A stretch of DNA of 64,000 nt from NCBI GenBank assembly GCA_000004985.1, contig GG738924.1. One strand, given 5' to 3'. The DNA is from Naegleria gruberi (lineage: Eukaryota). Shown here one piece after another: positions 1 to 39,301 of this stretch; positions within the stretch are counted from its first letter, which is position 1; each line of letters opens with the position of its first letter. The translations under genes were made by a program, and so were the position numbers. The notes under the pieces are model-generated. The model was not told the origin of the DNA, made no database searches, and saw only the letters and a list, made by a program, of their open reading frames with translations.

Positions 1-574
1 GTTGTGTGAGATTGACCAATTTGGTGGAAATGGTACCACATTGCTCTTCAATAAGTTCGACTCCATCGATTGTTAGAGAAAGCACCTTATCCATTTCCAA
101 ATTGGACCGCTCTATAAAGTCTGTCCATTTTTCGAATAAAGTAAAAGAGGGGTGGAGAGCGAGTCTCCCTCTCGTTACTTGGTTCCAATTACTGCACACA
201 TACGCGCATTGAGAAAAGTGCTCTTTAGTCGAGAGAAAGGAAAATATATCCAACAAATTTTCGTCAGGAAGGGAATTGATCCCAACACTACCAGAGCCGC
301 GACTCGCTTTGGCACTACTCTCGGCTTTGCAGGATTTGTCGTCAGGGGGAGTTGTCATTTTTTTTGATTATGATATGTGATGGCAAATTTGACGTGTCAC
401 TCCCACAAGCGGGATCTATTTTTAGTTTGGTTTGAAATTTTAAAAGCGTGCTCCAAAACACCTCCCATAATTTCCGCATGATTAAAATACACCCAGTGTT
501 CGAGACACAATGCCATCGTGGATGATATTTGTCATCTGGTGTTTATTGGAACATTATCAAATAAATGGATTAGA

Positions 575-683
575 CAAAAGTTACCAAAATCTTAGTAGTA
601 CCGTTTCAGTTTTACCTAGTTGTAATAAACATCGGAAATTTATTTATGAATTTACACAAAAAACTCGAGGAAGTTAAATGATC

Positions 684-690
<7 letters not shown>
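575..690 (+). pseudogene. Orphan 3' fragment copied from the C-terminus of the gene at 8336..9214
   Basis: The + strand here translates to ...YQNLSSTVSVLPSCNKHRKFIY. This matches the C-terminal ...YDNLSSTVSVLPSCNKHRKFIYVFNNKS of the minus-strand ORF at 8336..9214. Nucleotides 580-660 are the reverse complement of 8360-8440. There is no upstream ORF, so this is a fragment, not a gene. Confidence 0.45.

Positions 691-716
<26 letters not shown>
687..716. repeat. (AT)15 microsatellite
   Basis: Perfect AT dinucleotide run. A second (AT)n at 8275..8310 sits in the mirror-image position next to the intact copy of the same gene 3' end. Confidence 0.9.
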
Positions 717-718
<2 letters not shown>

Positions 719-732
719 TATTTTCAACATCA

Positions 733-943
733 ATTTGTTCCAGTTAATTTTAAATCCATAGCTCTAAGAACCTCGTTAAAACCATTTGTCTTTTTCTTGT
801 TGTTAAAGTTTTTCCTTGCTTTGATGAAGGATCTGTTAAACTCCAAAACAGTATCATCTAAAAACAATTTTTCCTCTTTGTTCACATCTAATTCAACTAA
901 AGTATCCTTCAGCTTGTATTGTTTTCTAGCAATTGTTACATCT
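733..943 (-). CDS. Terminal coding exon of an unidentified gene
   Basis: The minus-strand frame is open for about 70 codons: ...VQDVTIARKQYKLKDTLVELDVNKEEKLFLDDTVLEFNRSFIKARKNFNNKKKTNGFNEVLRAMDLKLTGTN*. It follows a TTTTCAAG acceptor-like tract. It is not low-complexity. It is absent from the ORF track because it has no in-frame start. I recognise no homology. Confidence 0.3.
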
Positions 944-1606
944 TGTACCTTGAAAATATCATGTTTTTAAAACCACAAAATAATAAAATAATAAATTAAG
1001 ACAAATGGATTAAAAGCTCAAGGATTGAGACACCAATTAGTGAATCAACCTTGGAACCTGCTTTAAAGGATATAAATCTTTATTTAGCAGGTCCCTAGAA
1101 ATTAAAGTCTCAAAATTATGAAAAACTTATCGATAGTTTTGAAGCTAAAGATAAGAAAAAACATAGAGTATGTGAATAAATTGTAAAACCTGTGTCTTCC
1201 ATGAAGAAACAGAAAGCTAATTGAAGGAGAAGAACTTTCCAATTTGGGATATTCGAAACTTCGAGACTAAAGTAGTCAATTTGAGTAAGAAAGTGAAAAG
1301 CAACTGCATACATTGGAAGAATCACCAAAAAGTAAATGAATAACAAATAGAAAGTCCTAAAATCACCATTAATATATAAAAATCTATATGAATTTTCTGA
1401 AACAAATGGAATGAAAAATAAAATGATTCGAATCTATTAGAAACTGTCATCCAAAAAATAAGTTAGTGAATAAATGTAAAAATTGCACATCTTGAATGTA
1501 CACAGCCGCACTCTGAAATTAGCCCACTTACTGGGTGCTAATGAGCGAAATAAAGGCTGAAAAATTGTAAATACTAATTAAGGGTGGGTATGGGTGGGAC
1601 TTTGCC

Positions 1607-2131
1607 TTAATGATGACATGATGTTGAGACTATTTTTTGAGCATAATTTTTAAAATAATATTTTAATAATTTTGTATAAAAACACACTAGTTCTTCACCA
1701 TATTCAGAACTCCCATTGTTCAATTCGTCAATAATCAATTTCAATTCATTTCTACAGGCAATAACTTCTGATGAATTGACAGATAATCCATCATAACCAT
1801 GAATGCATTTTCCCTTGTAAACTTCATTCAATTCTAACGTCTTGTTTAGCATTACAAATTTCTTATTTTTGTAATCTAAAATCTTATCTTCAGTATAATT
1901 TTTGGAATTCGCAGCCATAACCCCAAATGCAATTTCTCCAATTTCTTCGGAGAACATAGTAAAATTTTCCGTAAAAAAGTCATGAAACGTTTTGGACTTC
2001 TTCTTCCAAAATTCAAATAACAAAGATTGGAATATTTCTGCATTCCTATATAAGTTATGTTTTCCCAAAATAAATAGGTATGTTAATACATCTCTAGATA
2101 ATGAAAATTCATTCCAATTTCCAACTCTCAA
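1607..2131 (-). CDS. Hypothetical protein (174-aa ORF), possibly 5'-truncated by the adjacent retroelement
   Basis: Non-repetitive ORF ending at 1607. Its 5' end abuts the retrotransposon junction at 2176-2256. No domain recognised. Confidence 0.3.
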   Translation of the reverse strand: MRVGNWNEFSLSRDVLTYLFILGKHNLYRNAEIFQSLLFEFWKKKSKTFHDFFTENFTMFSEEIGEIAFGVMAANSKNYTEDKILDYKNKKFVMLNKTLELNEVYKGKCIHGYDGLSVNSSEVIACRNELKLIIDELNNGSSEYGEELVCFYTKLLKYYFKNYAQKIVSTSCHH

Positions 2132-2175
2132 TGCATAATAATAACTTCTAAGGGCTGGTAAAATTGTCTCAAAAA

Positions 2176-2254
2176 GAATTGTAAAGTTTTTGGCAGCTAT
2201 TGTAGTAGTTCTAACCTGAATTGTAAAGTTTTTGGCAGCTATTGTAGTAGTTCA
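2176..2254 (+). repeat. Tandem duplication of a 35-bp unit at the left junction of the retroelement
   Basis: aattgtaaagtttttggcagctattgtagtagtt occurs twice, at 2176-2210 and 2220-2254, separated by ctaacctg. It lies immediately before the point where homology to the inverted gag copy begins. Confidence 0.6.
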
Positions 2255-2684
2255 AACACCAAGCAAAGCGAATATCTCCAACATTCGTCAAAGAGTTTCA
2301 GCAAGCAAATCTTCAACTTCTACCTACAAGTCAGGTTACATCCCAGTAACTGACAATGGTAGCTCAGCTTCACTCCCCTCTGTGGTTGACCCAACAAGCA
2401 AAACCTTGGATAACAATCAAGCTGGTTCTGAAAAGAACCTTGATGCTATTTTCAACGCCATCACTTCTTTGGGTGAGAGAATAAAGCATCTCGAAGCTGT
2501 TCCTCCTGTTCTGCAACAAGCTAATCAACTTGATGAAGACCCTGATGAGGAATCCGCTGATGAGGATTTCACTGGTAAACATTGGGGTCTAACTACTATC
2601 AAGGAGATTAGACGTAACTACGAAGTTGGTGATAGACTATCTGTTATAGGCGATAAAAACTCGCACGAAGACCCAGGCAGTTAA
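2232..2684 (+). pseudogene. gag-like ORF1, N-terminal half, interrupted after ...NYEVGDRLS by a nested insertion
   Basis: It is 97% identical at the protein level to residues 15-160 of the intact minus-strand gag at 6911..7978. The reading frame leaves the gag sequence at nt 2642 and resumes at 4064. Confidence 0.5.
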
Positions 2685-4063
2685 ATTCGTTGGTATGAAC
2701 CTTCCAGGCGAAAAATACTTCTAGGATAGATTCCATTAAAATTATCCATCCCTAAAAGTCTGCTATATCAGGGATGGAATTAGGCCTTGCACAAATAGAA
2801 TCCAATTAGACAACACTTATCTGTTAAGGTAGGAATTATCATTAATATGATAAGTCTCATTAAACAAGCTCTATTAGCATGAATTTAGAGCCATTATGTG
2901 TAATATCTTGTTTTATGAACCTATTCAATATCTACTAGGATTTTATGAATTATCAAGTATTAAAGAAGTATATTTAATTGGTAAATAATCACAGATTAGT
3001 TTTTAAAAATTTAAAATCTCCAATTCAATGAATTTAACACAATAAATTAATGTGTGATACAAAAGTACAATGAAATTTATTATTTTGATGTTTTGACATG
3101 GTGAACATCTGGTTAGGCTGAGAACTTGCATGTTTAGAGAGAAATTTAAGATCTTTATGATCTCATCGAAATAAAACGAAATATTTGATATGGTACATCT
3201 ACAATAATACTAATAACAGTTTATTAATGTTTCAAGAAGTTTGGCTATGTACTTTTGGCATGAATCATGATATGTTATCATGAATATTCCGAAGTTGGTA
3301 AAACAACAAAATGATGAAAAACTGATAATAAATATATTGTTTATTATGTATTTGAATAGTAGTTATGAAAGACATTTTCAAAGTTGGTGAAGTACATGTT
3401 GAGTTATGGTCCATGTACATGTTGAAAATATACATGAACCTATCATCATGATAACCAATAGGAAAATGTTCGGAAGTGATTTTACCTGATGGAATCGACC
3501 ATGCTGAACAATACTAGATGAAAGTTTTCCAAATTACCATATGAATCTGGCAGTGATGATGATTTTAGTGAAAATATTGAATTTCACTAAAATATTACTA
3601 TTATCAGATTTATTTCCACAAATATTACTATTATAATGATGATAAATAACAATGATGATGGTTGGAAGTTGTTCCGATGATGGTTTACCAACTTGAATTT
3701 TTCCCAAGTGAAAATTAAATTCCAAATTTATAATCACAATCCAATAATAAAAAATACTACCAGTAATACTATTAGGATGATGTTGAGATGATGATGTGAA
3801 AGTTTGGTGGATTCATGGGGTGAAATCACTCTGAAAATCACCAAAGTGTTCCCAATGTGTGTTTGGGCTGAAATATTTTTTCTTAATGGTGGAAAATAAT
3901 GGAACGTGTATTTGTTCGGTGTTATTAATACATACAAGGCAACACCAAGAACTTTTGTCCATCAAATAAGCACCTTACTATTTTCGCATAGACATTTTAG
4001 GCTATTTTTTTTGGCCTATATATTTTTTGCCTGTTTTTCAGGCGAAAAAAGTAGCCTAGAACA
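2642..4063. mobile_element. Nested 1.42-kb non-autonomous TIR element (MITE-like) inside gag
   Basis: An intact gag is available for comparison at 7540-7560 (reverse complement). Against it, the insertion is flanked by a duplicated TATC (2638-2641 and 4064-4067). Its termini are TGTTATAGGC...GCCTAGAACA, imperfect 10-bp inverted repeats. Subterminal CAGGCGAAAAA motifs occur near both ends. The interior is AT-rich and non-coding, with (ATG)n-like tracts at about 3590-3700. Confidence 0.5.
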
Positions 4064-4131
4064 TATCCGATGGAGATGTCTTAAGTTTTGTCTCAGCCAA
4101 AACACTTCGTCATTACTCTTCCAATGAGGCG

Positions 4132-4698
4132 TTGTTGAGTAGAGTTCAAGTTTTGATGGCTCGATTTGAATCTGTCATTCACAACTCTCGTAACTATCCT
4201 CGTCTGCAAGAAATTCAATCCAAAGGCTTGCAAAAGATGATGGAAATGTTACATTTGAAGTCTAAATTACTTCAGTTTGCTCTGAGCCATCCATTAAATG
4301 TAACCAACATCATTGAAATCACTGAGTTGGTGTTTCTCCTCTCTGAGGTTGAGAAAATCTTTTTAGAAGAAGGTTTGTTCGAAAGTAACTTTGATGTTGC
4401 GAACCAATTTATTCAACCCTTCATCCAAAGCAACACGTTTGCTGATATAACAGAAAAAGCTCGTCAAAAGAAGAGAGAGAAGTCTATAGTAAAACATGCC
4501 ATCACCAGCAAGATCCAAAAACCTCTAAAGATGAAAGAAAAGTTTCAAAAACCGTCCTCTCATCAAGGTGGCATCCCTAACAGCTATTCAAAGCCATTCA
4601 ACAATTACAACAAGAGTGGTTCCTCTTTTCAAAAGTCAGGAGATTCCAAGCCAAAGTACAATAACAATGGTGGAGGATCTTTCAAACAAGACCTCTGA
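4132..4698 (+). CDS. gag-like ORF1, C-terminal part, resuming after the nested insertion
   Basis: Collinear with the C-terminal 190 aa of the intact gag copy (...RVQVLMARFESVIHNSRNYPRLQEIQSKG...GGGSFKQDL). It ends at TGA 4696-4698. The next ORF (4708..6687) continues in the same frame. Confidence 0.55.
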   Translation: MLSRVQVLMARFESVIHNSRNYPRLQEIQSKGLQKMMEMLHLKSKLLQFALSHPLNVTNIIEITELVFLLSEVEKIFLEEGLFESNFDVANQFIQPFIQSNTFADITEKARQKKREKSIVKHAITSKIQKPLKMKEKFQKPSSHQGGIPNSYSKPFNNYNKSGSSFQKSGDSKPKYNNNGGGSFKQDL

Positions 4699-6553
4699 CT
4701 TGGTAGGTTGCCGTCTCAACAAGTTTGTACCTCAGTGGGAGAGTTACAACTTCAACCCATTTATAGTGGATTGGATTCGAAATGGAGTCCCAATCTACTC
4801 AAATCCCACCCTTTGGAAAGAATTCAAACAAAGGAAGAATTTCTCTCCAAAGGAAACCTCTTGGATGGATCAGGAAATCCAAGATATGCTGAGTTCCAAT
4901 GTAATAGAGATTGGAAACAGTTCAACAATATTGAACCCAATAAACATTGTACCCAAGAAGGGTTCGGATCAATTTCGCTTTATTCTAGACCTAAGGAAGG
5001 TCAATTTAGGAATAAAGGACAGTTCCTTCAAGATGGACAACATTCAAAGATGTTTGAAATTTGTTCAGAAGGGAATGTGGGCAACAAAGATAGACCTGAA
5101 GAAGGGTTACTTCCACGTTCCAATCAGGGAGAAACATCGCAATCTTCTTGGATTCCGGTACAAGGACAAGATTTATCAGTTCAAATGCCTACCGTTTGGG
5201 CTAAGTCAAGCTCCCAGAAATTTCACAAAGATTATGAAAGAGTTGGTGACCAAGTGGAGAAAGAAGGGTATTCTAGTATTTATTTACATAGACGATATTT
5301 TGATTCTAAGCAACAGCAAAGAAACTACCCAACTGCTCACAGACATAGTCATGAAGGATCTGGAGACATTGGGATGGATAATCCAGAAAGAGAAAAGCGT
5401 ATTAGCACCGTGTCAACACATAGAGTTTCTCGGTCTGGAACTGGATCTCGTACTTGGCCTTGTGAAAATCCCAGTCAACAAACAATCAACAGCCTTAGAA
5501 ATGATTCAAAAATTCTTATCAGCAAACCAACGGAACAGGTTTGTAGCATGCAAGAAAGTAGCACAATTCCTCGGAAAGATGGAATTTCTAACTCTTTCAA
5601 ACCACTACTTTGCTCCCTTTCTTGCTCGTCTTCGGAAGGATATGGTGAAAGTAGTAAACGACAAATCTTGGCACGCATCAATGAGAATATTCAGAGGTGC
5701 AGCGAAGGATCTAAATATTTTGAAAGATCTGATTCAGGAAAACAGTGGAATTCCCTTCGAACTGAATTCAATGAACCCAATTCGAGTGAATTCAGATGCC
5801 TGCCCAACAGGCTATGGAATTCACGCAGAGTCAACCATTACAATTGGAAGATTCACTTCCTCAGAACACATCAATGTGAAAGAGTTAAAAACACTCCTCA
5901 TTTTCTTCACACAAGCAGATCGGTTAAACCTTTATGGTCCTGGACAAGCATTCGAAATCAGAGGCGACAATGTTACAGCAATTTCCTATATAAGGAGAGG
6001 TTACGGAGTCATAGAAGAACTCTCTCAAATTGCCAGAGACCTCTACAAGATCTTGATGAGAAGAAAATGGTGGATTTCAAAGGTGATTTACATTCCCTCA
6101 AAGGAGAACAATCTAGCAGACAGACTGAGTCGCTTAACAGAATGGAAATCATCTCAAGAACTACTGCATCTAGTTCAGACAGAATTTGGAGAACACCATG
6201 TGGACAGGTTCGCGACATCGGAATCAACCACAACAATTCAATTCAACTCATGGATAGAGAACGACACATTCTTGAATCCATGGGAACAAAATCTGATGAG
6301 TTATTGTGTTCCTCCTCTGGGTCTGATATCTCAAGCTCTAGTTCATTGCATAAAATCAGAAGCGAAAGCGACATTTGTAGTTCCAGACTGGCCCTCTTCG
6401 ATATGGTTTCCAGTCTTGCTAAAGATATCAGAAAGGATAATACCTGTTTCCCGAAAGATGCTTATAATAACGCCCTTGTCAGAGTTGCAAGACAAGTTCG
6501 AGACTTCCAATTTCCTGGTTGTTCAAGTGCATGGCAAGTTGTTCAAGCAATAA
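4568..6553 (+). CDS. Reverse transcriptase / RNase H polyprotein, DIRS type
   Basis: 661-aa ORF in frame 2, overlapping the gag end by 130 nt. It has RT blocks including YIDDIL, and RNase H motifs DACPTGYG...DNVTAISY...IPSKENNLADRLSR. Confidence 0.8.
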   Translation: MASLTAIQSHSTITTRVVPLFKSQEIPSQSTITMVEDLSNKTSDLVGCRLNKFVPQWESYNFNPFIVDWIRNGVPIYSNPTLWKEFKQRKNFSPKETSWMDQEIQDMLSSNVIEIGNSSTILNPINIVPKKGSDQFRFILDLRKVNLGIKDSSFKMDNIQRCLKFVQKGMWATKIDLKKGYFHVPIREKHRNLLGFRYKDKIYQFKCLPFGLSQAPRNFTKIMKELVTKWRKKGILVFIYIDDILILSNSKETTQLLTDIVMKDLETLGWIIQKEKSVLAPCQHIEFLGLELDLVLGLVKIPVNKQSTALEMIQKFLSANQRNRFVACKKVAQFLGKMEFLTLSNHYFAPFLARLRKDMVKVVNDKSWHASMRIFRGAAKDLNILKDLIQENSGIPFELNSMNPIRVNSDACPTGYGIHAESTITIGRFTSSEHINVKELKTLLIFFTQADRLNLYGPGQAFEIRGDNVTAISYIRRGYGVIEELSQIARDLYKILMRRKWWISKVIYIPSKENNLADRLSRLTEWKSSQELLHLVQTEFGEHHVDRFATSESTTTIQFNSWIENDTFLNPWEQNLMSYCVPPLGLISQALVHCIKSEAKATFVVPDWPSSIWFPVLLKISERIIPVSRKMLIITPLSELQDKFETSNFLVVQVHGKLFKQ

Positions 6554-6687
6554 GGGATCTTAGTATCCTTTCATCAATAGCTGAGAAAACATTCAGAACT
6601 TATAATAGAATTTATGGTGGTTTTCTCTGGTTTATCAATGTGTTTGATCTCACCATTGATGATCCTATAGCTATTGAATATTGTTGA
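4708..6687 (+). CDS. 659-codon ORF overlapping the RT ORF in another frame, the same frame as gag (candidate second pol-region ORF)
   Basis: There are no stops for about 2 kb although the region is AT-rich, which is very unlikely by chance. It starts 3 codons after the gag TGA, in the gag frame. Its first 76 codons are also present in the inverted partial copy (6671..6901, minus). DIRS-type elements are known to carry overlapping ORFs. I could not identify catalytic recombinase motifs by eye. Confidence 0.4.
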   Translation: MPSQQVCTSVGELQLQPIYSGLDSKWSPNLLKSHPLERIQTKEEFLSKGNLLDGSGNPRYAEFQCNRDWKQFNNIEPNKHCTQEGFGSISLYSRPKEGQFRNKGQFLQDGQHSKMFEICSEGNVGNKDRPEEGLLPRSNQGETSQSSWIPVQGQDLSVQMPTVWAKSSSQKFHKDYERVGDQVEKEGYSSIYLHRRYFDSKQQQRNYPTAHRHSHEGSGDIGMDNPEREKRISTVSTHRVSRSGTGSRTWPCENPSQQTINSLRNDSKILISKPTEQVCSMQESSTIPRKDGISNSFKPLLCSLSCSSSEGYGESSKRQILARINENIQRCSEGSKYFERSDSGKQWNSLRTEFNEPNSSEFRCLPNRLWNSRRVNHYNWKIHFLRTHQCERVKNTPHFLHTSRSVKPLWSWTSIRNQRRQCYSNFLYKERLRSHRRTLSNCQRPLQDLDEKKMVDFKGDLHSLKGEQSSRQTESLNRMEIISRTTASSSDRIWRTPCGQVRDIGINHNNSIQLMDRERHILESMGTKSDELLCSSSGSDISSSSSLHKIRSESDICSSRLALFDMVSSLAKDIRKDNTCFPKDAYNNALVRVARQVRDFQFPGCSSAWQVVQAIRDLSILSSIAEKTFRTYNRIYGGFLWFINVFDLTIDDPIAIEYC

Positions 6688-7041
6688 ACTGTTTCCAATC
6701 TCTATTACATTGGAACTCAGCATATCTTGGATTTCCTGATCCATCCAAGAGGTTTCCTTTGGAGAGAAATTCTTCCTTTGTTTGAATTCTTTCCAAAGGG
6801 TGGGATTTGAGTAGATTGGGACTCCATTTCGAATCCAATCCACTATAAATGGGTTGAAGTTGTAACTCTCCCACTGAGGTACAAACTTGTTGAGACGGCA
6901 ACCTACCAAGTCAGAGGTCTTGTTTGAAAGATCCTCCACCATTGTTATTGTACTTTGGCTTGGAATCTCCTGACTTTTGAAAAGAGGAACCACTCTTGTT
7001 GTAATTGTTGAATGGCTTTGAATAGCTGTTAGGGATGCCAC
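6574..7041 (-). pseudogene. Truncated N-terminal fragment of the RT ORF in the inverted copy
   Basis: Its first 120 aa are identical to the start of the 4568..6553 ORF (MASLTAIQSHSTITTRVVPLFKSQEIPSQ...NSST). It then diverges at the copy junction. Confidence 0.5.
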
Positions 7042-7940
7042 CTTGATGAGAGGACGGTTTTTGAAACTTTTCTTTCATCTTTAGAGGTTTTTGGATCTTG
7101 CTGGTAATGGCATGCTTTACTACAGACTTCTCTCTCTTCTTTTGACGAGCTTTTTCTGTTATATCAGCAAACGTGTTGCTTTGGATGAAGGGTTGAATAA
7201 ATTGGTTCGCAACATCAAAGTTACTTTCGAATAAACCTTCTTCTAAAAAGATTTTCTCAACCTCAGAGAGGAGAAACACCAACTCAGTGATTTCAATGAT
7301 GTTGGTTACATTTAATGGATGGCTCAGAGCAAACTGAAGTAATTTAGACTTCAAATGTAACATTTCCATCATCTTTTGCAAGCCTTTGGATTGAATTTCT
7401 TGCAGACGAGGATAGTTACGAGAGTTGTGAATGACAGATTCAAATCGAGCCATCAAAACTTGAACTCTATTCAACAACGCCTCATTGGAAGAGTAATGAC
7501 GAAGTGTTTTGGCTGAGACAAAACTTAAGACATCTCCATCGGATAGTCTATCACCAACTTCGTAGTTACGTCTAATCTCCTTGATAGTAGTTAGACCCCA
7601 ATGTTTACCAGTGAAATCCTCATCAGCGGATTCCTCATCAGGGTCTTCATCAAGTTGATTAGCTTGTTGCAGAACAGGAGGAACAGCTTCGAGATGCTTT
7701 ATTCTCTCACCCAAAGAAGTGATGGCGTTGAGAATAGCATCAAGGTTCTTTTCAGAACCAGCTTGGTTGTTATCCAAGGTTTTGGATGTTGGGTCAACCA
7801 CAGAGGGGAGTGAAGCTGAGCTACCATTGTCAGTTACTGGGATGTAACCTGACTTGTAGGTAGAAGTTGAAGATTTGCTTGCTGAAACTCTTTGACGAAT
7901 GTTGGAAATATTCGCCTTGCTTGGTGTTTGAACCATTTCA
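6678..7940 (-). mobile_element. Inverted, 3'-truncated second copy of the DIRS-like element (5' region + gag + first ~280 nt of pol), head-to-head with the long copy
   Basis: The reverse complement of 6680-7940 is collinear with 2257-2641 plus 4064-4933 of the long copy. It has no nested insertion. The two arms meet at about 6677/6690. The copy's own upstream region 7941-8274 runs to the (AT)n at 8275. Confidence 0.7.
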
Positions 7941-7978
7941 ATATACTTAATTTTTTTGAGCATAAAATTATTTATCAA
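6911..7978 (-). CDS. Intact gag-like ORF1 of the inverted copy (355 aa)
   Basis: MVQTPSKANISNIRQRVSAS...GGGSFKQDL* is uninterrupted here. In the + copy the same protein is split into 2232..2684 and 4132..4698. Confidence 0.65.
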   Translation of the reverse strand: MINNFMLKKIKYIEMVQTPSKANISNIRQRVSASKSSTSTYKSGYIPVTDNGSSASLPSVVDPTSKTLDNNQAGSEKNLDAILNAITSLGERIKHLEAVPPVLQQANQLDEDPDEESADEDFTGKHWGLTTIKEIRRNYEVGDRLSDGDVLSFVSAKTLRHYSSNEALLNRVQVLMARFESVIHNSRNYPRLQEIQSKGLQKMMEMLHLKSKLLQFALSHPLNVTNIIEITELVFLLSEVEKIFLEEGLFESNFDVANQFIQPFIQSNTFADITEKARQKKREKSVVKHAITSKIQKPLKMKEKFQKPSSHQGGIPNSYSKPFNNYNKSGSSFQKSGDSKPKYNNNGGGSFKQDL

Positions 7979-8271
7979 CTCAATTTTATTGTTTACAATT
8001 TGTCGTAATACTAACGTTGCATCGTTCCTCGCAACTCTACATTGGAAGTAATAATCTTTATGGTAAATCCAAAGAAAATAAATTCAAAGAAAAAACAAAC
8101 TTTGTAAAAATATTACAAAAACACTGTTATTAGAAGTAGTAAAAGTAGAGTTATGATAGTTGTTTATTAAAACAAAGAAAAACTCTTACAACAAGAAATA
8201 GACAACTAGATTCATGGAGGTTGATGGAGTAGTTTAAAAATAAATGGAACAACTAATATCTAACATCAATT

Positions 8272-8274
<3 letters not shown>

Positions 8275-8310
<36 letters not shown>
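8275..8310. repeat. (AT)18 microsatellite
   Basis: Perfect AT run. It is the mirror partner of the (AT)15 at 687..716. Confidence 0.9.
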
Positions 8311-8312
<2 letters not shown>

Positions 8313-8335
8313 CAAATATCATCATTTGACTACTT

Positions 8336-9214
8336 TCAGCTTTTATTGTTAAAAACATAAATAAATTTCCGGTGTTTATTACAACTAGGTAAAACTGAAA
8401 CGGTACTACTAAGATTATCGTATCTAGTGGGGAACTTATGAAAATTAGGGGTTCTGCTGGCCCATTTGCTGACTTTTTCAATGGTTTCTACTGCTTTTAC
8501 TTTTTCAGCAGATTTAATGGCCTTCTCTTGTTGTTTGGAGGTGATTTGGTCAAGTGAACCTCCTGATTTGTAGCTGTTAGAGAAGTTTTCAGCTGCTTCA
8601 AAGCCATTTTTAATGCCCATTCGAATACAGACTAGATTTAACTCAGAAATATTCTGAATAAATTCAAATCCTTGAAGAATAAGCGGTAAATCAAGGGTAT
8701 CACTCTCTCTCAAACGCTTGCAGATTTGAGAGATGATAAAAGAGTTTGTTAAAAGTAAAGAATAACCTTTACTTTTAATATCTTTTATACCAGATGAATC
8801 TGGAATGGGAGTGTCTACTTCTTTTCTGAACAACAATTCAAGAGCAGCCATTCTATTCTTGAATTCCAAGTTGTCAGCGTATGGAGCATTGGCTGTTTCG
8901 AATAGAAGAGAAACAGCTTCTTCCAACGGCAAATCTTCTTTCAATGACTCACCAAACATTCTTTGGTAAGAGTTGATGACGTGGTTTTTAAACCAATCAT
9001 CTGGTTCATCAGCAACTCTTGCTCTTTTACCAGAAACCTCTTCAGATGGGTTGGACTCAAACAATTCCATCGAAGAAGCGAGAGCAGAAGCACCTTGTGA
9101 ACCAACCTTGGCGGAAGGAGTTAGAACAATGACTCGTTGCTCGCTACCTGCAGAAGGTGAGCTAAGGTCTTTCGTTTTCTTGTTGTTCTTTGGTGTAGTT
9201 GGTGTTGGGGCCAT
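8336..9214 (-). CDS. Hypothetical protein (292 aa)
   Basis: Single ORF with an acidic, S/P-rich N-terminus and a helical C-terminus. Its last 35 codons are duplicated in inverted orientation at 575-690. The motif CATGCTCAAAAAATTATCACA lies immediately upstream of the ATG. Confidence 0.5.
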   Translation of the reverse strand: MAPTPTTPKNNKKTKDLSSPSAGSEQRVIVLTPSAKVGSQGASALASSMELFESNPSEEVSGKRARVADEPDDWFKNHVINSYQRMFGESLKEDLPLEEAVSLLFETANAPYADNLEFKNRMAALELLFRKEVDTPIPDSSGIKDIKSKGYSLLLTNSFIISQICKRLRESDTLDLPLILQGFEFIQNISELNLVCIRMGIKNGFEAAENFSNSYKSGGSLDQITSKQQEKAIKSAEKVKAVETIEKVSKWASRTPNFHKFPTRYDNLSSTVSVLPSCNKHRKFIYVFNNKS

Positions 9215-9922
9215 TGTGATAATTTTTTGAGCATGGAAAAATACTCAACTTATATTTTATTAAGTTTACAATGAAAACAAGTCCATTCTTCACTTCGCTC
9301 AGAATTAGACATTAGAGGGTGTTTGTTCATAAGTGCTAGATAGATATCGTGCAGATGGTGCATTGGGGAATCCAATAACTAGAAAAGAAGGTGATAATTG
9401 CAAGCTAGAAGAAATAGATTTCTTATCCGTATCAATTCTACGAATTATATTAGCTTTTTCTCTTGTTTCAGTTATCCAATTTGGGCAAGGATCAAACTCT
9501 TCAGAAGCAAACAAATCAGTATCCTGTCCGGAAAGAACAAGGTCCCTGGTGGTAACAAATAATTACAGGTATCCACACACATTTCTTCTACTGTTCCTTC
9601 ACATTCGTTTTCATTAGCCATTTTTCTTACTTGTTGTTCCATTTTTTAAAAGTGTTTTTTAACGAGTAATAAGCGTTTCCAATCAAGATTTAAGGCTTGC
9701 TCGAGTTTCAGTATTTATTCGATTAATGTATTCTCTCCTGATAAGAAATAAAGCAATTATTATTCACACAATAAACTCTGGACTTGCCGAAACTTGATAA
9801 ATCTAAGAGGATCAACCATTTGCTTTCAAGTATTCTAATTCATTAAATCTATGCATCCTTAGTAACTGAAAAAGTGGCTGAGGAAAATTTTCATTAAAAT
9901 AAAAATAGACCAGATCAAAAAC

Positions 9923-11011
9923 ATGGGTTGTTATGCTAAAGAGAATAGATTAACCGACCAAGAAGAAATTTTCAATGAGGGAGGAGGAGATGACGTAGCA
10001 GTTATGAAATATTTTGATATTAAGAATTCATCAATATTAGCAGCAACTATTATTTGGCAATTTTCGGATGAACATATGATGTTTTATTCGGGCGAATCTC
10101 GTGAAGAATTTCAAGATAATATGCCCCTCAATGACTTTGCCAATGAATGTATTCCATTGTGGTTACCTGACATTAGAAAGAAAGCTTTCAAAATTTGCAC
10201 TTTGAAAGAATGGTTAGATGAAGATGAAAATAATCCTCTTCATTCTTCTGGATTTCAATTTTCTCCTTCATACATAGGAAGTTCATCAATTGAGAAGGAA
10301 GGTACAATTTATTGTGCTTCAAATGATTTGTTTTCTCCTCATCAAGTAATGATGAAAGAAAAAATTAAGAGAAAGTTTGTGGAATTTTGTGCTTGTACCT
10401 CCTTTGGAAATGGATTGGATATTGAGGGAATTGATTTTTCAATGTTATGTGGAAAGATTTCGGATAACAGCTTGAAAACAGAGTTTATTGTACCATGTGC
10501 TTATAATCAAGTAGAAGAAACTCCTGTTATAGTGATTGGATACCCAACAAGACCTTCCAAGGCTCAAATTCTGAATGCTTATGAAATTCCTCCAAAAAGG
10601 AGGGCATTCGATGCTATATTCTCTTACAATTATAAAACAGCAAGTATAGGAAAGATCAAACACAGCACTAATCCCGATTTCATGTTAATTTCAAATGCGA
10701 CTTGTTTTGGAATGGAAGGTTCTGCTGTATTTTCTATAAAAGGGGAATTAATTGGAATAGTTATGAAAAGAAAGAAGATTTCAAAGTATAACATTGTTTT
10801 AAGTGTAAATCATCCAAGTTTTGTCATTGAATATTTGAGCTACCCAGGAAATGAACTTCTTTCTATGGATAGATCATTATATCTGCCTTTACTAGCTCCA
10901 TATATTGAGAAACACTTTCAACTTTTAACGAAAGCAATCGAAAACAAGTTGTTGAACGAAACTTTGAAGAAGAATGTGAAAAATGTGTTGGACATGGTTA
11001 ATATGAGATAA
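9923..11011 (+). CDS. Hypothetical protein (362 aa), possible trypsin-like fold with a non-canonical active site
   Basis: The C-terminal region NATCFGMEGSAVFSIKGELIGIVMKRKK resembles the GDSGGP...G.LVGIVS block of chymotrypsin-fold proteases, but the catalytic Ser position is not conserved. I have no firm homology. Confidence 0.35.
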   Translation: MGCYAKENRLTDQEEIFNEGGGDDVAVMKYFDIKNSSILAATIIWQFSDEHMMFYSGESREEFQDNMPLNDFANECIPLWLPDIRKKAFKICTLKEWLDEDENNPLHSSGFQFSPSYIGSSSIEKEGTIYCASNDLFSPHQVMMKEKIKRKFVEFCACTSFGNGLDIEGIDFSMLCGKISDNSLKTEFIVPCAYNQVEETPVIVIGYPTRPSKAQILNAYEIPPKRRAFDAIFSYNYKTASIGKIKHSTNPDFMLISNATCFGMEGSAVFSIKGELIGIVMKRKKISKYNIVLSVNHPSFVIEYLSYPGNELLSMDRSLYLPLLAPYIEKHFQLLTKAIENKLLNETLKKNVKNVLDMVNMR

Positions 11012-11734: not shown

Positions 11735-12282
11735 ATGATTTTATACATTACGTTTTGAATCATTAAAACATTCGCGTACTTTGACTCTCAAACAATGTTT
11801 CAAGAAAGCTTATCAACTAGCTTTACAGATTATAGGAAACACTGGTATGTGTTTTGAAGAATAATATCTGATTGAAATAATCCTCTTTTTCTAAAGTAGT
11901 TGATTCTAGTGTTTTCTTCCAAACAATTGTCCGCCAATTAACATTTACTCAAACTGGAATCTTTTAAGGTTTTTCCAAAATACTCTTAATAAAATTAACA
12001 TCTATTTCAATGGTGGACTTGCGTTTCAGAAAAAATATGAAATTGACACACAAAAAGTTTGTGAGTGAAGGTAGTGTCGATCTACCACCTTAGATTCAAC
12101 GGTGAGCGTCTATGTTCTCCCAATTAAACTATTCACCCACAAATTTATCTATTAAACACACAGATCAAGATATGATAATAAGCACTTCCAAAAATAGATT
12201 TGGTTTTGGTTTTGATTAATTTTAAATATAACTTATTGAATTTGACGCTCTATTCAGAATAGAGTTTAGTCAGTGGATTGTT

Positions 12283-13500
12283 TGAAATATGAGTTGATAT
12301 TTGAAAAGTAAATTAGTAAATTGAATCAGTGAAGGTTTCATTAGGGGAAATCAGATTTCCATCCAAATTTGGAACCTTACATCTAACTTTTTGAGTTTGT
12401 TCCAAATGAAAAACTATTCGAAATGGTTTAAATTAGCACCATGTGTTTGAACTTTACTATCCAACAAAAAAAAATGAAAACAAATCTAATCTTTTCAATT
12501 GCAATTCTACTTTTACTTGCAATCCTCTCAGTTCAAGCAAGTGACAGCTATCAAACTAAACCTCCAGTTGTTGACAAGTATCACAAGCCAAGAATTTGTA
12601 AGAGAAAATGTTTAAAGCACAAGTGGATTAAGAAGTGTTTGAAACACAAACTCGTCGGTCAAAAGAAGGTCTGTGATCAATATGCAATTGTCGGTGCTGG
12701 CAAATGTCTCAAACATAAGAAATATTCTAAATGTGACAAGTACAGTAAGGCAACAAAGAAGTGTGTCTTGCATGCATACAAGATTGTTGGATGTGCCAAG
12801 AAGAAGTATTGGAAAGTTTGTGATTCTTATGGAACTAAGAAGATTTGTATCAAGAAGGGTTACAAGAAATTCTGTGCCAAACACAAGATTATCAACAAGT
12901 GCGTCAAGAAGGGATATAAGAAGGTCTGTAAGAAATTCAAGAAGGTTCCAATCAAGAAGTGTGAAAAGAAGAAGATTTGCGACAAGTATACTGTTGATTC
13001 CTATAATAAGAAGGTTGCCAAATGTAGATATGTTAAAAAGTGCAAGATTGTTTCATGGGCAAAGAAATGCGCCAAGTATAAGAAGGTTAAATACTGTAAG
13101 GAGAGAAAATCCATTAAGAAGTGTTGTCTCATTAAGAAGAAATTCTTCTGTGCCAAACATAAGACTATCAAGTTCTGTAAACACAAGAAGACTATTTCCA
13201 AATGTGTGAAATATAACAAGAAGAAGTATTGTGCCAAGTCAATTGTCATTCCACCAAGATGTATCAAGAAGAAGTATTATAAGAAGTGTTTGAAACGTTC
13301 AAAGGGAAAGAAGATTTGTAAGAAATTCAAATTAGTTGGTGGAAAGAAAAAGTGTTGCAAGTCAATCAAGAAGAAGATTTGTATCAAGAGAAAGACATGC
13401 AAAAAGTCATCAAAGCCAATCGTTAAACCATCCTTGTAAATTAATGGCATTTGCTAATACACTCTTAGTAATACGTGAGAAATATTAATAACAAAATAAA
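12283..13500. repeat. Arm A of a 1.2-kb inverted segmental duplication (partner at 55430..56650)
   Basis: The reverse complement of 55430-56650 matches this interval at about 97%. The match includes about 160 bp upstream and about 60 bp downstream of the K/C-rich CDS. Confidence 0.8.
12441..13439 (+). CDS. Secreted polybasic cysteine-repeat protein (332 aa; about 35% Lys, about 15% Cys), copy A
   Basis: N-terminal signal peptide MKTNLIFSIAILLLLAILSVQA. The mature part is tandem KKCxKxKK-type modules with Cys about every 8 residues. Several alternative-frame ORFs from the track (12612..12884, 12673..13209, 13001..13267) are artefacts of this repetitive AAG-rich sequence. Confidence 0.7.
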   Translation: MCLNFTIQQKKMKTNLIFSIAILLLLAILSVQASDSYQTKPPVVDKYHKPRICKRKCLKHKWIKKCLKHKLVGQKKVCDQYAIVGAGKCLKHKKYSKCDKYSKATKKCVLHAYKIVGCAKKKYWKVCDSYGTKKICIKKGYKKFCAKHKIINKCVKKGYKKVCKKFKKVPIKKCEKKKICDKYTVDSYNKKVAKCRYVKKCKIVSWAKKCAKYKKVKYCKERKSIKKCCLIKKKFFCAKHKTIKFCKHKKTISKCVKYNKKKYCAKSIVIPPRCIKKKYYKKCLKRSKGKKICKKFKLVGGKKKCCKSIKKKICIKRKTCKKSSKPIVKPSL

Positions 13501-13520
13501 TTAAACTATTTCACTACAGT

Positions 13521-28108: not shown

Positions 28109-29661
28109 CTAATAAAATTGTCTAGTCTTGTTGTTCAATTCTAACCATTCCTTATACCAAGAACGATCAGGAAACACTTTCTTATTATCCTCAATAGCTT
28201 GTCTATGTTTATGACAATCAGAAATTTCATGATCTGAAGCTGGCACAGTTCCATTCTTAGTTAAAACATTCAAAGTTTTGGTGAATCCTTTAAATAGTAA
28301 TTTTGCTCTCTTTTTCCAAAATATTTCAGATAATAAATTAGTTTGGAATGGTAAATCAAAATTAGTATAGGTCACGTGAACTAATCTTGTAAATCTATCA
28401 GAAAGTCTGTAGAATAGATAGTAGCTCAGTGAATCTGCCTTGACGTGTCCTTGAGATGGCATTTCTTCTTCTGAGAAATCAGCAGTGTGTAATAGATGAA
28501 ATAAGAGATCAGTTTCTTGGATGGTGGTTGCTACAGATGACAGTTGTCGTTTTTTGACAAGTGGTAGAGATAGGTCAATACCGATTGAAAGACATTGAGT
28601 AGCATAGGAAGAATTAATTCCTTCTGAACCCAAGCCATTCAATCCACTAGGAGGTCTATAATCATGCAATTCGAAACCTTTCGTCTGAGGATCAAACGAA
28701 TTATGATTGTCAGCATCAAATAACATTGTTGACACATCTTCCAATGAAAATGGCAGATACATTACAGCTTTCAACAACTTCATTCCCTTCGATTCTCCAA
28801 AAAAGTAAGTACTGTTCGAAGAGTAACAATATAAATCTTCCCTTTCGTATATTAATTTCCAATCTGGCGTGTCTTGGGCAAGTGTGAAACCAAAGTAAAT
28901 GTGATTGTCGGTAATTAGTTGTTCTTTCAAGTCTTTTGGTTTAAATCTCAAATCGACATTGTATCCTTTGGAAATATCGTATCCAATTGATCTGGTGAAG
29001 GTTTCACCTTTGAGTTTCAGAAAGTTTCGTAATTTTTCTGAACGAACAAATCTTGGAAATTGGTCCATCTTTAAATCTAGTGAACAGATGACATAACTTT
29101 TGAGAATAAAGCATCAGGATGTAATTTTTTCATTATTGCACTTTCTAATTGCTCCAACGAAAGTTGACTATCAGAAGCAACACAAAATGAAAGTCTAGAA
29201 CTACTCTGACTACCACCTGTCAAAGTAATAAACGTATCAAGCAAATCCTCTTTAGCCAGTTTCCAATAATTCAACAGCCAACTCTGACTAGTTCCAATAT
29301 TCAACTCTTTTTCACTATGATATTCAATAAATGTTTGAATAATCTTCTCCACTCGTAAAATAACCTCATTTCTGAACAAATTCTTGTTTTGTTTGGAAGA
29401 ATTTGATGAATTCTTGAGTGAAACCTTTTCTTCATCTGCCCAGCCACCAAAAACCTCCTTCAGCACCTGTTCATACCCACTGAAATACTCAGCATAGGTA
29501 TCGAGGAAAAGTAGAGGTTCTTCATTTCTACAATCTTGAAGAAAGTCTTGAAAGATCTTTCTTGCTTCCTTGTTATCGAGAACTGCTTCATAGTCGATAA
29601 AGTAATTGGAGGGATCGAAGTGGGCTTGTGATGACATTTTTTTGTAGGTGCCATAAAACAA
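28109..29661 (-). pseudogene. Disrupted tandem paralog of the RGS-domain gene at 29772..31337
   Basis: ORF 29077..29661 is paralogous to the N-terminal RGS half, and ORF 28109..29068 to the C-terminal half. At the junction the intact copy reads ...SSVHLDLKMDQFPRF. This copy has a 1-bp deletion plus a substitution that creates TAG after SSVH and shifts the frame. Confidence 0.5.
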
Positions 29662-29771
29662 TTAGGTAAGGCCAAACGTGATGGGAAATTTGACACTCTG
29701 CCATAAATACATTTTTGGATGGGGATTAATATGGAACAATTACATAAGTAGCCAAGTTAAGAACTAGAATG

Positions 29772-36772: not shown

Positions 36773-36834
36773 TAAATTAATAGAAAATAATTGGTTCATT
36801 GCAGCAAGATTCTAAGGTTATTAAGGAAAACACT

Positions 36835-36925
36835 GGTGAGATGGTCGAGTGGTCTAAGACGACACGTTAAGGTATGATTAATACCGTGTTCCGCAAGGGC
36901 GTGGGTTCAAATCCCACTCTCATCA
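36835..36925 (+). tRNA. tRNA-Leu (anticodon AAG) with an 11-nt intron
   Basis: Class II tRNA. Acceptor GGTGAGA/TCTCATC, D arm GTCGAGTGGTCTAAGAC, anticodon stem-loop ACACG-TTAAGG-[ATGATTAATAC]-CGTGT, long variable arm TCCGCAAGGGC, T arm GTGGGTTCAAATCCCAC. TTAAGG at -14..-9. TTTT terminator. Confidence 0.65.
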
Positions 36926-37001
36926 AATTTTGCTTTAGGAATTGATTGGAAACTAATAAGGCTCTTGATATTTAATTAAATTTCGTTAATTAAGGCAAGA
37001 A

Positions 37002-37007
37002 GGGGTT

Positions 37008-37038
<31 letters not shown>

Positions 37039-37074
37039 TGCAGAAGGTCTAGGGTTCGATTCCCTATGACTCCA
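37002..37074 (+). tRNA. tRNA-Ala (anticodon UGC), copy 1
   Basis: GGGGTTATAGCTCAGTTGGTAGAGCGTCTGCTTTGCATGCAGAAGGTCTAGGGTTCGATTCCCTATGACTCCA with the G3:U70 Ala identity pair. TTAAGG at -12..-7. TTTT terminator after CCAA. Confidence 0.9.
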
Positions 37075-37496
37075 ATTTTACCCCATTCGTTGTTTTTATT
37101 GGCCAAATATGTATTATTATATTACTTATCGATTTCATACCCAATACTCTATTATTTCGATGGTTTGAGTGTCAAATCCAACCACTATGAATACTGAGAG
37201 TTGATCTTGGAGTTTTTGGAATTGTTGGAGATGACAACCTTGAACTTTTAAAAAGAAGTGAAAAGACTTGATATTGAAATATAAACATTGAATAGTTTAT
37301 TAACCACTTTTAGATTGTTATGAATTCAAAGTCAATCTATCGCTCATTTTTTTGTATACAAACATTGTAAACTCTGATTTCGATTACTTTCAACAATGAG
37401 TAATTATATTATTAGAAACGTGATTACTAAAAACAATTCAAAAAGCACGTTTCAGAAATTCCCAACAAGAAACAACTTTAAAACAAACAATTCTAA

Positions 37497-38308: not shown

Positions 38309-38315
38309 AGGGGTT

Positions 38316-38346
<31 letters not shown>

Positions 38347-38381
38347 TGCAGAAGGTCTAGGGTTCGATTCCCTATGACTCC
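38309..38381 (+). tRNA. tRNA-Ala (anticodon UGC), copy 2
   Basis: Identical to the 73-nt copy 1. Shares the upstream ATTAAGGMAAGAA and the downstream CCAATTTT flank. Confidence 0.9.
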
Positions 38382-39295: not shown

Positions 39296-39301
39296 GGGGT
39301 T

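What the first reader, a model, noticed from the sequence alone, without database searches (positions are those of the whole stretch)
575..8445. 140-bp inverted repeats (a gene 3' end plus (AT)n) bracket the whole 7.6-kb TE island
At 8336..8445 lie the last 35 codons and 3' flank of the minus-strand gene 8336..9214, followed by (AT)18. The same segment occurs again at 580..716 in the opposite orientation, with its own (AT)15. Nucleotides 580-660 are the reverse complement of 8360-8440. It is unattached to any gene.

So the TE island, plus an unrelated ORF (1607..2131) and a terminal exon (733..943), sits between inverted copies of a host gene 3' end. This fits a palindromic or inverted duplication, or a breakpoint, mediated by the microsatellite or the retroelement. 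A simple insertion would not give this.
Basis: seen in the sequence. Interest (0 to 1): 0.5.

Follow-up and report, generated by a model that had tools for sequence, protein, structure and literature searches.

The report
Decayed inverted copy of a gene tail
The inverted repeat is real, but it is an old, decayed inverted copy of the tail end of a small Naegleria-specific gene, later pushed apart and partly overwritten by young DIRS-type retrotransposons, which makes it an ordinary rearrangement scar.

Summary
The window is Naegleria gruberi. The inverted repeat exists and is longer than reported: 579-872 pairs with 8425-8119 (about 300 bp, 74% identity, E about 1e-49). Identity is uneven: a 58-nt tract (591-648 / 8413-8356) matches 57/58, and the rest matches 60-73%.

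The right-hand "host gene" (8336-9214) is the gag-like ORF1 of a truncated DIRS1-like retrotransposon. Its own sequence stops at 8414, and its last 25 codons read through into the repeat.

The duplicated gene tail belongs to the left gene. The "terminal exon" (733-959) and the "unrelated ORF" (1607-2131) are two halves of one orphan gene, H, split by a 754-bp DIRS-like insertion. The left arm is H's native last 46 codons, stop, (AT)n and 3' flank. The right arm is a decayed inverted copy carrying an in-frame stop and frameshifts.

A relative from another organism has the same order, coding end then (AT)n then flank. So the microsatellite is ancestral to the gene family, not a breakpoint mediator. 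The retrotransposon copies (98-99% identical to other copies) are much younger than the arms (about 26% diverged).

How the old duplication arose is unresolved. The repeat is not a transposon terminus and very unlikely an assembly artefact.

The parts
1..358 (-). 5' part of an F-box-like host gene (ATG at 358). This is the left neighbour of the region; the left arm begins about 220-230 bp upstream of its start codon.
   Evidence: Translation (LPDENLLDIFSFL... F-box-like motif, recognised by eye, not scanned against Pfam).
579..590 (.). 12 nt of host DNA matching 9/12 the last 12 nt of the ORF1 fragment (8414-8425). Read as microhomology at the ORF1|repeat junction, not as part of the old duplication.
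   Evidence: Read.
591..872 (-). Left arm: the native 3' end of gene H. It holds the last 46 codons and stop (872->733), (AT)14, and about 100 nt of 3' flank including the 58-nt near-identical tract.
   Evidence: the repeat. (continuity with the H ORF). (same layout in L006).
591..648 (.). Near-identical tract: 57/58 matches to 8413-8356. It abuts the ORF1|repeat junction in the right arm. It is also the best-conserved part of the flank in L006 (73%).
688..715 (.). (AT)14 microsatellite, 18 nt downstream of the H stop codon.
   Evidence: L006 has (AT)8 right after its stop codon.
733..959 (-).
   Evidence: P0012 residues 81-153 match 963->745 (42%, E 8e-10). Reconstruction.
960..1713 (-). 754-bp insertion splitting gene H, with ATG on both sides. 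It carries a DIRS-like 5' leader-like end (about 1716->1585, containing ATGCTCAAAAAA at 1644-1633), a 166-bp fragment of a fatty-acid-hydroxylase gene (1355->1190), and a 127-nt piece (1086->960) also found at 45173-45299.
1714..2249 (-). It is truncated at about 2240-2250 by retrotransposon copy X1 and contains a 42-bp tandem duplication (2176-2257).
   Evidence: homologues. (P0012 72%, P0014 42%). (L006 34-562 matches 2249->1716, 73%). (tandem duplication).
2250..6682 (+). DIRS1-like copy X1. It is 5'-truncated within ORF1 and 3'-truncated at the start of the recombinase region. It carries pol (4568-6553) and a long overlapping second ORF (4708-6687). ORF1 is interrupted by a 1,422-bp insertion (2642-4063).
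6674..8042 (-). DIRS1-like copy X2: an exact 5' end (ATGTAGAGTTGCG... at 8042), leader, intact ORF1 (341 aa from the ATG at 7936; the listed ORF is 6911-7978) and the first part of pol. It is inverted relative to X1 and joined to it at a 6-nt microhomology (6677-6682).
8043..8118 (.). 76 nt of unknown origin between the X2 5' end and the right arm. It has no similarity to gene H or to anything else in the window.
8119..8413 (+). Right arm: H', a decayed inverted copy of the last 46 codons of H, the stop, (AT)18 and the 3' flank. It has an in-frame TAG and 1-, 3- and 1-nt indels.
   Evidence: L006 649-931 matches 8118-8403 (61%).
8275..8310 (.). (AT)18 microsatellite of the right arm.
8414..9312 (-). 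5' fragment of a second DIRS1-like family ('A'): 5' end ATGTCTAATTCTGA at 9312, leader, and ORF1 codons 1-267. The annotated ORF 8336-9214 (NAEGRDRAFT_54068) continues for 25 more codons into the right arm.

Best explanation
The two arms are (left) the native 3' end of an orphan Naegleria gene, H, and (right) an old, decayed, inverted partial copy of that 3' end. The duplicated piece covers the last 46 codons, the stop codon, an (AT)n tract that belongs to the gene family's 3' flank, and about 100 nt of downstream DNA.

Shown:
- H is one gene on the minus strand (2249->1714 plus 959->733). It is split by a 754-bp DIRS-like insertion and cut at its 5' end by retrotransposon copy X1.
- The right copy carries an in-frame stop and frameshifts.
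- The right-hand 'gene' is ORF1 of a truncated DIRS1-like element. Its own sequence ends at 8414, and it then reads through the repeat to the first stop.

Inferred order of events:
1. An old local event copied about 300 bp of the H tail in inverted orientation. If the insertions are simple, the copy lay only about 0.7 kb away. The event was a small inversion with one staggered break, or a template switch during replication or repair.
2. The copies diverged by about 26%.
3. Much later, DIRS1-like elements invaded: the 754-bp element into H, the 5.8-kb X1/X2 complex between the arms, and element A beside the right arm.
4. A break then removed the 3' part of A and the outer part of the right arm. 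It was sealed at a 9/12-nt microhomology.
5. While sealing, repair copied about 58 nt from the left arm. This would explain why the only near-identical tract (57/58) lies against that junction.
For: Organism.

Repeat extent and identity profile.

H is one gene:
- An exhaustive phmmer search of the 174-aa ORF finds P0012, P0014 and P0017.
- P0012 residues 1-82 match 1957->1712 (72%) and residues 81-153 match 963->745 (42%).
- Deleting 960-1713 restores one 254-codon ORF whose junction ELNN-DIFK-VQDV is colinear with P0012's ELNN-NVLR-VQSC.

The left arm is native, and the (AT)n is ancestral: contig L006 carries coding end, (AT)8 and flank in the same order, and it aligns to both arms.

The right arm is decayed: KTKKNSYNKK-stop against KARKNFNNKKK, plus indels.

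The right 'gene' is a retrotransposon ORF1:
- Homologues sit directly upstream of RT and recombinase ORFs.
- L007 is 99% identical and its homology stops at 8414.
- The natural tail is RQAGYNYNNNN....

Ages: X1 vs X2 are 98-99% identical. A vs L007 are 99% identical. The arms are 74% identical.

Microhomology junctions: 9/12 at A|repeat and 6 nt at X1|X2.

Homology does not extend beyond the arms, outward or inward.

The right copy stops 76 nt before the X2 end, and those 76 nt are unrelated to H. This favours a fragment duplication over a full paralogue cut by X2.
Against: The duplicating event itself cannot be reconstructed. No un-rearranged homologous locus was available, because N. gruberi scaffolds are not in the contig index.

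The gene-conversion reading of the 58-nt tract is inferred. The same tract is also the best-conserved part of the flank in a distant relative (73% against 44% in the spacer). Selection on a functional element could therefore contribute.

The '0.7 kb original spacing' assumes the X complex and the 754-bp element were simple insertions. H lacks its 5' end exactly at the X1 junction, so a deletion may have accompanied X.
Confidence: 0.6

Rival explanations
1. Remnant of a complete head-to-head paralogue. H and H' were once two full-length inverted gene copies. Retrotransposon insertions and deletions erased all of H' except its last 46 codons and flank.
For: H belongs to a family with several diverged members in other samples. 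The region has clearly suffered TE-associated truncations: H at about 2250 and element A at 8414.
Against: The 76 nt between the right arm and the exact X2 5' end (8043-8118) show no similarity to the part of H that should be there (46% identity, which is random). An extra deletion or replacement event is therefore needed. No other H-like sequence exists in the window.
Confidence: 0.2
2. Inversion-coupled duplication (the staggered-break model of Ranz et al. 2007). The segment between the arms was inverted, and the 300 bp between two staggered nicks ended up at both ends in inverted orientation.
For: The geometry fits: inverted copies of unique gene sequence flank a segment. The size also fits; such duplications have a median of 321 bp and range from 46 bp to 1.9 kb (PMC1885836). 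This is one of the two mechanisms allowed within the best explanation.
Against: No outgroup order is available, so the inversion itself is untested. The second N. gruberi model P0018 has ORF1 and H in the same relative orientation as the window, so it is not the un-inverted state. The model needs the outer edge of the right arm to be an ancestral continuity, but that edge is now a young TE junction.
Confidence: 0.25
3. The arms are the termini of one mobile element: inverted terminal repeats of a DIRS1-like element, or terminal inverted repeats of a DNA transposon spanning 579-8425.
For: DIRS1-like elements have inverted terminal repeats of 66-316 bp with conserved and divergent parts (PMC3266345). 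The outer part of the arms is the better conserved.
Against: - The X family's 5' end is at 8042. An independent copy (L005) loses homology there, so the right arm lies outside X2.
- No internal complementary region exists; there is no third copy of the arm ends.
- The arms are gene H coding sequence plus its flank.
- There is no target-site duplication, and the two outer flanks are unrelated.
Confidence: 0.02
4. One reading: the tail of the right-hand host gene plus (AT)n was copied to the left, mediated by the microsatellite or by the retroelement.
For: The last 25 codons of ORF 8336-9214 do lie in the repeat.
Against: That ORF is a retrotransposon ORF1 whose own sequence ends at 8414. The left arm is contiguous with its own gene and with the family's ancestral layout. 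The (AT)n is internal to the arms and ancestral. The TE copies are younger than the arms.
Confidence: 0.03
5. Assembly artefact: a chimeric join or a mis-assembled haplotype.
For: The N. gruberi assembly holds redundant small scaffolds of this locus (P0002 on 2.2 kb, P0018 on 15.3 kb). It also has a gap elsewhere in the window (45985-46034).
Against: The arms differ at about a quarter of positions, so they are not one sequence placed twice. There are no Ns in 1-10000. The A|repeat junction is encoded identically in an independent scaffold's model (P0002). The left-arm layout is reproduced in L006.
Confidence: 0.03

Closest known systems
Inverted duplications of unique gene sequence at inversion breakpoints (Drosophila; Ranz et al. 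2007, PMC1885836)
   Same: Inverted copies of a few hundred bp of a gene end flank a segment. One copy stays attached to its gene while the other decays. The size (about 300 bp) matches their median of 321 bp.
   Different: The inversion itself is not demonstrated here because no outgroup is available. The arms are more diverged (74% against about 88%). The interval has since been filled by retrotransposons.
DIRS1-like tyrosine-recombinase retrotransposons and their nests (Dictyostelium DIRS-1; Piednoel et al. 2011, PMC3266345)
   Same: The elements in and around the repeat show a gag-like ORF1, an RT-containing pol ORF with a weak Dam-type methyltransferase match, and a long overlapping ORF that ends in a tyrosine recombinase in relatives. 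Fragments lie in both orientations.
   Different: The repeat under study is not part of these elements. Their inverted terminal repeats and internal complementary regions could not be identified here. Each element starts with ATG about 100 nt before ORF1.
Microhomology-mediated junctions with short templated patches (alternative end joining or template-switch repair)
   Same: The junctions show 6-nt and 9/12-nt microhomology. A 58-nt near-identical tract lies next to one junction.
   Different: This is inferred from sequence only. The tract could instead be a conserved element.

Membership tests
DIRS1-like retrotransposon (for elements X and A, not for the repeat) | pol ORF with reverse transcriptase, RNase H and a Dam-like methyltransferase domain | tested here: met
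   4568-6553 hits RVT_1 (E 4.8e-25) and Dam (E 9e-6, just under the curated cutoff). RNase H was not separately scored.
DIRS1-like retrotransposon (for elements X and A, not for the repeat) | [quoted passage not shown] | tested here: met
   The overlapping 659-aa ORF is 4708-6687. In L005 (87% identical to X1) the same frame is 881 aa, with a Phage_integrase match at residues 746-875. L001 and L003 also match (E 3e-5 to 3e-4, just below the cutoff). The window copies themselves are truncated before the recombinase domain.
DIRS1-like retrotransposon (for elements X and A, not for the repeat) | Inverted terminal repeats plus internal complementary regions | tested here: inconclusive
   No complete 3' end was available. 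No inverted copy of the 5' termini was found in the window.
Terminal inverted repeats of a mobile element (for the 300-bp repeat) | The arms are the ends of the element: homology to independent copies reaches the arms, with an internal complementary region or a target-site duplication present | tested here: not met
   An independent X copy (L005) ends at 8042, 76 nt short of the arm. No third copy of the arm ends exists. There is no target-site duplication and the flanks are unrelated. The arms are gene H sequence.
Inversion-coupled inverted duplication (Ranz model) | Inverted copies of ancestrally unique sequence at both ends of a segment | tested here: met
   The sequence is a gene 3' end.
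Inversion-coupled inverted duplication (Ranz model) | The enclosed segment is inverted relative to an outgroup or the ancestral order | not testable with these tools
   N. gruberi scaffolds and other Naegleria genomes are not retrievable. The metagenome scans gave only short contigs.
Gene-conversion tract between the arms | A sharply bounded tract with far higher identity than the flanking homologous sequence | tested here: met
   57/58 matches within arms that are 60-73% identical elsewhere. The alternative, selection, is not excluded: the same tract is 73% conserved in L006 against 44% in the spacer.

The most novel reading that the evidence does not exclude
The 58-nt tract (591-648 / 8356-8413) may be a functional non-coding element in the 3' flank of H-family genes, or in the promoter of the downstream F-box gene. 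It is kept nearly identical in both arms and recognisably conserved in a distant relative. It is the best-conserved part of the flank in L006 (73%, against 44% in the spacer and 59% in the coding tail). No Rfam family or stable fold was found.

A related possibility concerns the nested inverted repeats. A transcript starting at the intact X2 leader would run into antisense X1 and fold into a 1.27-kb hairpin RNA. That RNA could feed RNA interference against this DIRS family.
Probability: 0.12. Interest if true: 0.4.

Novelty: new member of a known kind. Interest (0 to 1): 0.22.

Why it matters
The main value is a corrected annotation.

- An annotated N. gruberi 'predicted protein' (NAEGRDRAFT_54068) is a truncated DIRS1-like gag-like ORF fused to unrelated DNA.
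- Two apparently separate ORFs are halves of one TE-disrupted orphan gene.
- The inverted repeat is a scar of an old small rearrangement, not a structure built by the transposons or the microsatellite.

The region also gives clean, intact-ORF examples of DIRS1-like elements in Naegleria. [quoted passage not shown] The examples here include their 5' ends and microhomology junctions.

None of this changes current understanding of genome rearrangement.

Tried and rejected
- **Yeast origin.** I guessed this from base composition. One search rejected it (Naegleria gruberi).
- **The repeat as the inverted terminal repeat of the X element.** Rejected because L005 defines the X 5' end at 8042 and no internal complementary region exists.
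- **The 'terminal exon' as the C-terminus of a tyrosine recombinase.** Rejected: the full recombinase seen in L003 has no similarity to it.
- **The repeat as the 3' terminus of DIRS-like elements.** No inverted match to any 5' terminus was found.
- **An old larger palindrome.** Homology does not extend outside the arms, even across the ORF1 fragment.
- **A known RNA gene in the near-identical tract.** No Rfam match at E <= 1, no tRNA, and folding energies no better than shuffles.
- **A mutational bias such as RIP in the arms.** None was seen.
- **A concatenated-protein search.** It missed the H family that exhaustive phmmer later found. Its negative result for N. gruberi annotation should not be trusted.
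- **Metagenome scans.** The scan for the core found nothing. The scan with the RT gave only two short contigs.
- **Exact look-ups of N. gruberi proteins.** All failed because the genome is not indexed.


Full report
**Observation.** The window is from Naegleria gruberi. ORF 8336-9214 is 100% identical to a 'predicted protein [Naegleria gruberi]', NAEGRDRAFT_54068, on a 196,593-bp scaffold.

The inverted repeat is real. Self-blastn gives 579-828 vs 8425-8163 (76.8%, E 1.7e-48). A more sensitive setting extends it to 579-872 vs 8425-8119 (313 columns, 74.4%). A shuffle control gives a local score of 233 against a null maximum of 44. Homology does not continue outward or inward, not even on the far side of the ORF1 fragment.

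Identity along the arms is very uneven:
- 591-648 matches 8413-8356 at 57 of 58 positions.
- The adjacent 33 nt match at 73%.
- The microsatellite region aligns trivially.
- The inner 150 nt match at 64-73%.

Each arm has an AT microsatellite: (AT)14 at 688-715 and (AT)18 at 8275-8310. These are the only two such tracts in the 64 kb, and there is no assembly gap in 1-10000.

**The right-hand 'gene' is a retrotransposon ORF.** A 56%-identical homologue (P0003) lies on a metagenome contig (L001). There it sits directly upstream of a 645-aa RT-containing ORF and a recombinase-like ORF. That RT region is 53% identical to the window's 4925-6688 in translated comparison (tblastx, 588 columns).

A conserved leader ending in ATGCTCAAAAAA precedes ORF1 in L001. 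In the window it occurs only at 9234, 7963 and 1644, all on the minus strand.

Contig L007 comes from an N. gruberi-like strain and is 99.1-99.3% identical. It carries the intact element: a 361-aa ORF1 followed by two further ORFs of 576 and 263 aa, which were not classified (no significant Pfam match). Its homology to the window ends exactly at 8414.

The natural ORF1 tail is ...PTRYDN-RQAGYNYNNNNNHNNN... (P0019). The window ORF instead continues ...PTRYDN-LSSTVSVLPSCNKHRKFIYVFNNKS. The last 25 codons of the annotated protein are therefore read-through into the repeat.

The 12 nt on the element side of the junction (8414-8425) match the 12 nt beyond the left arm (579-590) at 9 of 12 positions (read). 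This is a microhomology junction.

**The elements are DIRS1-like.**
- ORF 4568-6553 hits RVT_1 (E 4.8e-25) and, weakly, Dam methyltransferase.
- A second 659-aa ORF (4708-6687) overlaps it in another frame.
- In L005 (82-87% identical to X) that overlapping frame runs 881 aa and ends in a Phage_integrase match. The recombinase ORFs of L001 and L003 match too.

This is the 'long ORF overlap' architecture described for DIRS1-like elements (PMC3266345). That survey listed seven DIRS1-like sequences in N. gruberi but called them uncertain.

The island holds two X copies in inverted orientation:
- X1 (about 2250-6682, plus strand) lacks its first ~107 nt and stops at the start of the recombinase region.
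- X2 (8042->6674, minus strand) has an exact 5' end, an intact ORF1 and the first part of pol.

They are 98-99% identical over 1,274 nt and are joined at a 6-nt microhomology, AATATT. L005 loses homology to the window at 8042. The right arm (8119-8413) therefore lies outside X2. With no third copy of the arm ends anywhere, the idea that the arms are DIRS termini is refuted.

**The left arm is the native tail of a gene.** An exhaustive phmmer search with the 174-aa ORF (2131->1607) found a small family with no Pfam domain.

The closest member, P0012, matches the window in two pieces:
- Residues 1-82 match 1957->1712 at 72%.
- Residues 81-153 match 963->745 at 42% (E 8e-10).

Its junction ...IIDELNN-DIFK-VQDVTIARKQYKL... 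is colinear, residue for residue, with P0012's ...VINELNN-NVLR-VQSCTISKKQYKL....

The 754-bp block starts with a DIRS-like leader. It contains a 166-bp fragment of a fatty-acid-hydroxylase gene, 97.6% identical to contig L002. It ends with a 127-nt piece that recurs at 45173-45299. H is also cut at about 2250 by X1: L006 homology reaches 2249, and P0014's first 64 residues are missing.

The left arm is thus H's last 46 codons, its stop, the (AT)14 tract 18 nt later, and the following flank.

Contig L006 carries P0012 from another organism. It shows the same order, coding end then (AT)8 then flank, and it aligns to both arms (533-931 to 992->601; 649-931 to 8118->8403; about 61%). So the microsatellite and the flank are ancestral features of this gene family.

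**The right arm is a decayed copy.** In H's reading frame the right arm reads KTKKNSYNKK-stop where H has KARKNFNNKKK. It then loses the frame through 1-, 3- and 1-nt indels. It ends at 8119, and the 76 nt up to the X2 end are unrelated to H.

**History.** The arms are about 26% diverged. The retrotransposon copies are 98-99% identical to other copies. The duplication therefore long predates the present elements.

Remove the 754-bp element and the X complex, and assume both were simple insertions. The arms then stood only about 0.7 kb apart. This calls for a small, local event:
- a small inversion with one staggered break, which in Drosophila leaves inverted duplications with a median of 321 bp (PMC1885836); or
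- a template switch during replication or repair.

I cannot tell these apart without an un-rearranged relative.

The one young feature of the arms is the 58-nt tract, which lies directly against the young ORF1|repeat junction. The simplest reading is that the break which truncated element A was repaired using the left arm as template for a short stretch, then sealed at the 9/12 microhomology.

An alternative or additional cause is selection. The tract is also the best-conserved part of the flank in L006 (73%, against 44% in the spacer and 59% in the coding tail). No known RNA family, tRNA or unusually stable fold was found.

**Assembly.** An artefact is unlikely.
- The arms are clearly different sequences.
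- The ORF1|repeat junction is encoded identically in a second gene model on an independent 2.2-kb scaffold (P0002, NAEGRDRAFT_54940).
- L006 independently reproduces the left-arm layout.

A third model, P0018 (NAEGRDRAFT_76405, on a 15.3-kb scaffold), joins ORF1 codons 1-237 to gene H. The locus is therefore represented more than once in the assembly. Comparing those scaffolds is the obvious next step, but they could not be fetched.

**Verdict.** It is an old inverted partial duplication of the tail of an orphan gene, later separated and trimmed by young DIRS1-like retrotransposons. It is an ordinary kind of scar, of modest interest mainly for annotation and for documenting DIRS1-like elements in Naegleria.

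Noticed in passing
window 2250-8042 (arms 2240-2641 + 4064-4935 vs 6674-7943): Two DIRS1-like X copies form a 1.27-kb inverted repeat (98-99% identical) around a 1.74-kb loop. They are joined at a 6-nt microhomology (AATATT, 6677-6682). X2 keeps its exact 5' end and leader, so a transcript starting there would run into antisense X1 and could fold into a long hairpin RNA.
   Followed up: partly
window 2642-4063: A 1,422-bp insertion sits in ORF1 of X1 and is absent from X2. It has 10-bp terminal inverted repeats (TGTTMTAGGC) and a 4-bp duplication (TATC at 2638-2641 and 4064-4067). Part of it (3727-3830) is 73% identical to the DNA flanking the A-like element in contig L001 (4-107). It looks like a non-autonomous DNA transposon family shared with another Naegleria.
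   Followed up: partly
window 960-1713; also 45173-45299: A 754-bp element inserted in gene H has ATG on both sides. It has a DIRS-like 5' leader, an internal 166-bp fragment of a fatty-acid-hydroxylase gene (1190-1355, 97.6% to contig L002), and a 127-nt 3' piece ending ...AAAAACATG that recurs at 97.6% identity at 45173-45299. It may be a non-autonomous DIRS derivative carrying a captured gene fragment.
   Followed up: partly
window 9312, 8042, 1716 (minus strand); L001 ~113; L005 ~634: All three DIRS-like 5' ends in the window, and the X-like copy in L005, begin with ATG about 100 nt upstream of ORF1; the A-like copy in L001 has ATC at that position. All share a leader ending in ATGCTCAAAAAA 9-18 nt before the ORF1 start codon. 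Similarity between families does not extend further upstream.
   Followed up: partly
N. gruberi gene models outside the window (P0018 = NAEGRDRAFT_76405, 15,284-bp scaffold; P0002 = NAEGRDRAFT_54940, 2,227-bp scaffold): P0018 fuses ORF1 codons 1-237 of element A to the H exons. Two of its residues (HP) cannot be derived from the window sequence. P0002 is the same ORF1 with a 38-aa segment that the window copy has lost, and it has the same read-through tail. The locus is present more than once in the assembly, either as haplotigs or as a recent duplicate.
   Followed up: partly
window 12281-13515 and 55430-56664: A second, larger inverted repeat: 1,241 nt at 96% identity, with the arms 42 kb apart. 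Each arm carries a 322-332-aa lysine- and cysteine-rich ORF with no Pfam match.
   Followed up: no
window 2176-2257: A 42-bp tandem duplication (98% identical) lies inside the coding sequence of gene H, right at its junction with X1.
   Followed up: no
window 44327-46247: A 50-bp run of N (45985-46034) is immediately followed by the second copy of a 213-bp direct repeat (44327-44539 / 46035-46247, 99% identical), inside genes with repeated 'DREIVL'-type motifs. This is probably an assembly-gap duplication.
   Followed up: no
window 36834-39373: Three tRNA-Ala(TGC) genes lie within repeated flanks, plus one odd ARAGORN call with a 2-nt anticodon at 36834-36926.
   Followed up: no
window 28109-31337: Tandem paralogous genes on the minus strand: 28134-29660 vs 29779-31306, 72% nucleotide identity.
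   Followed up: no
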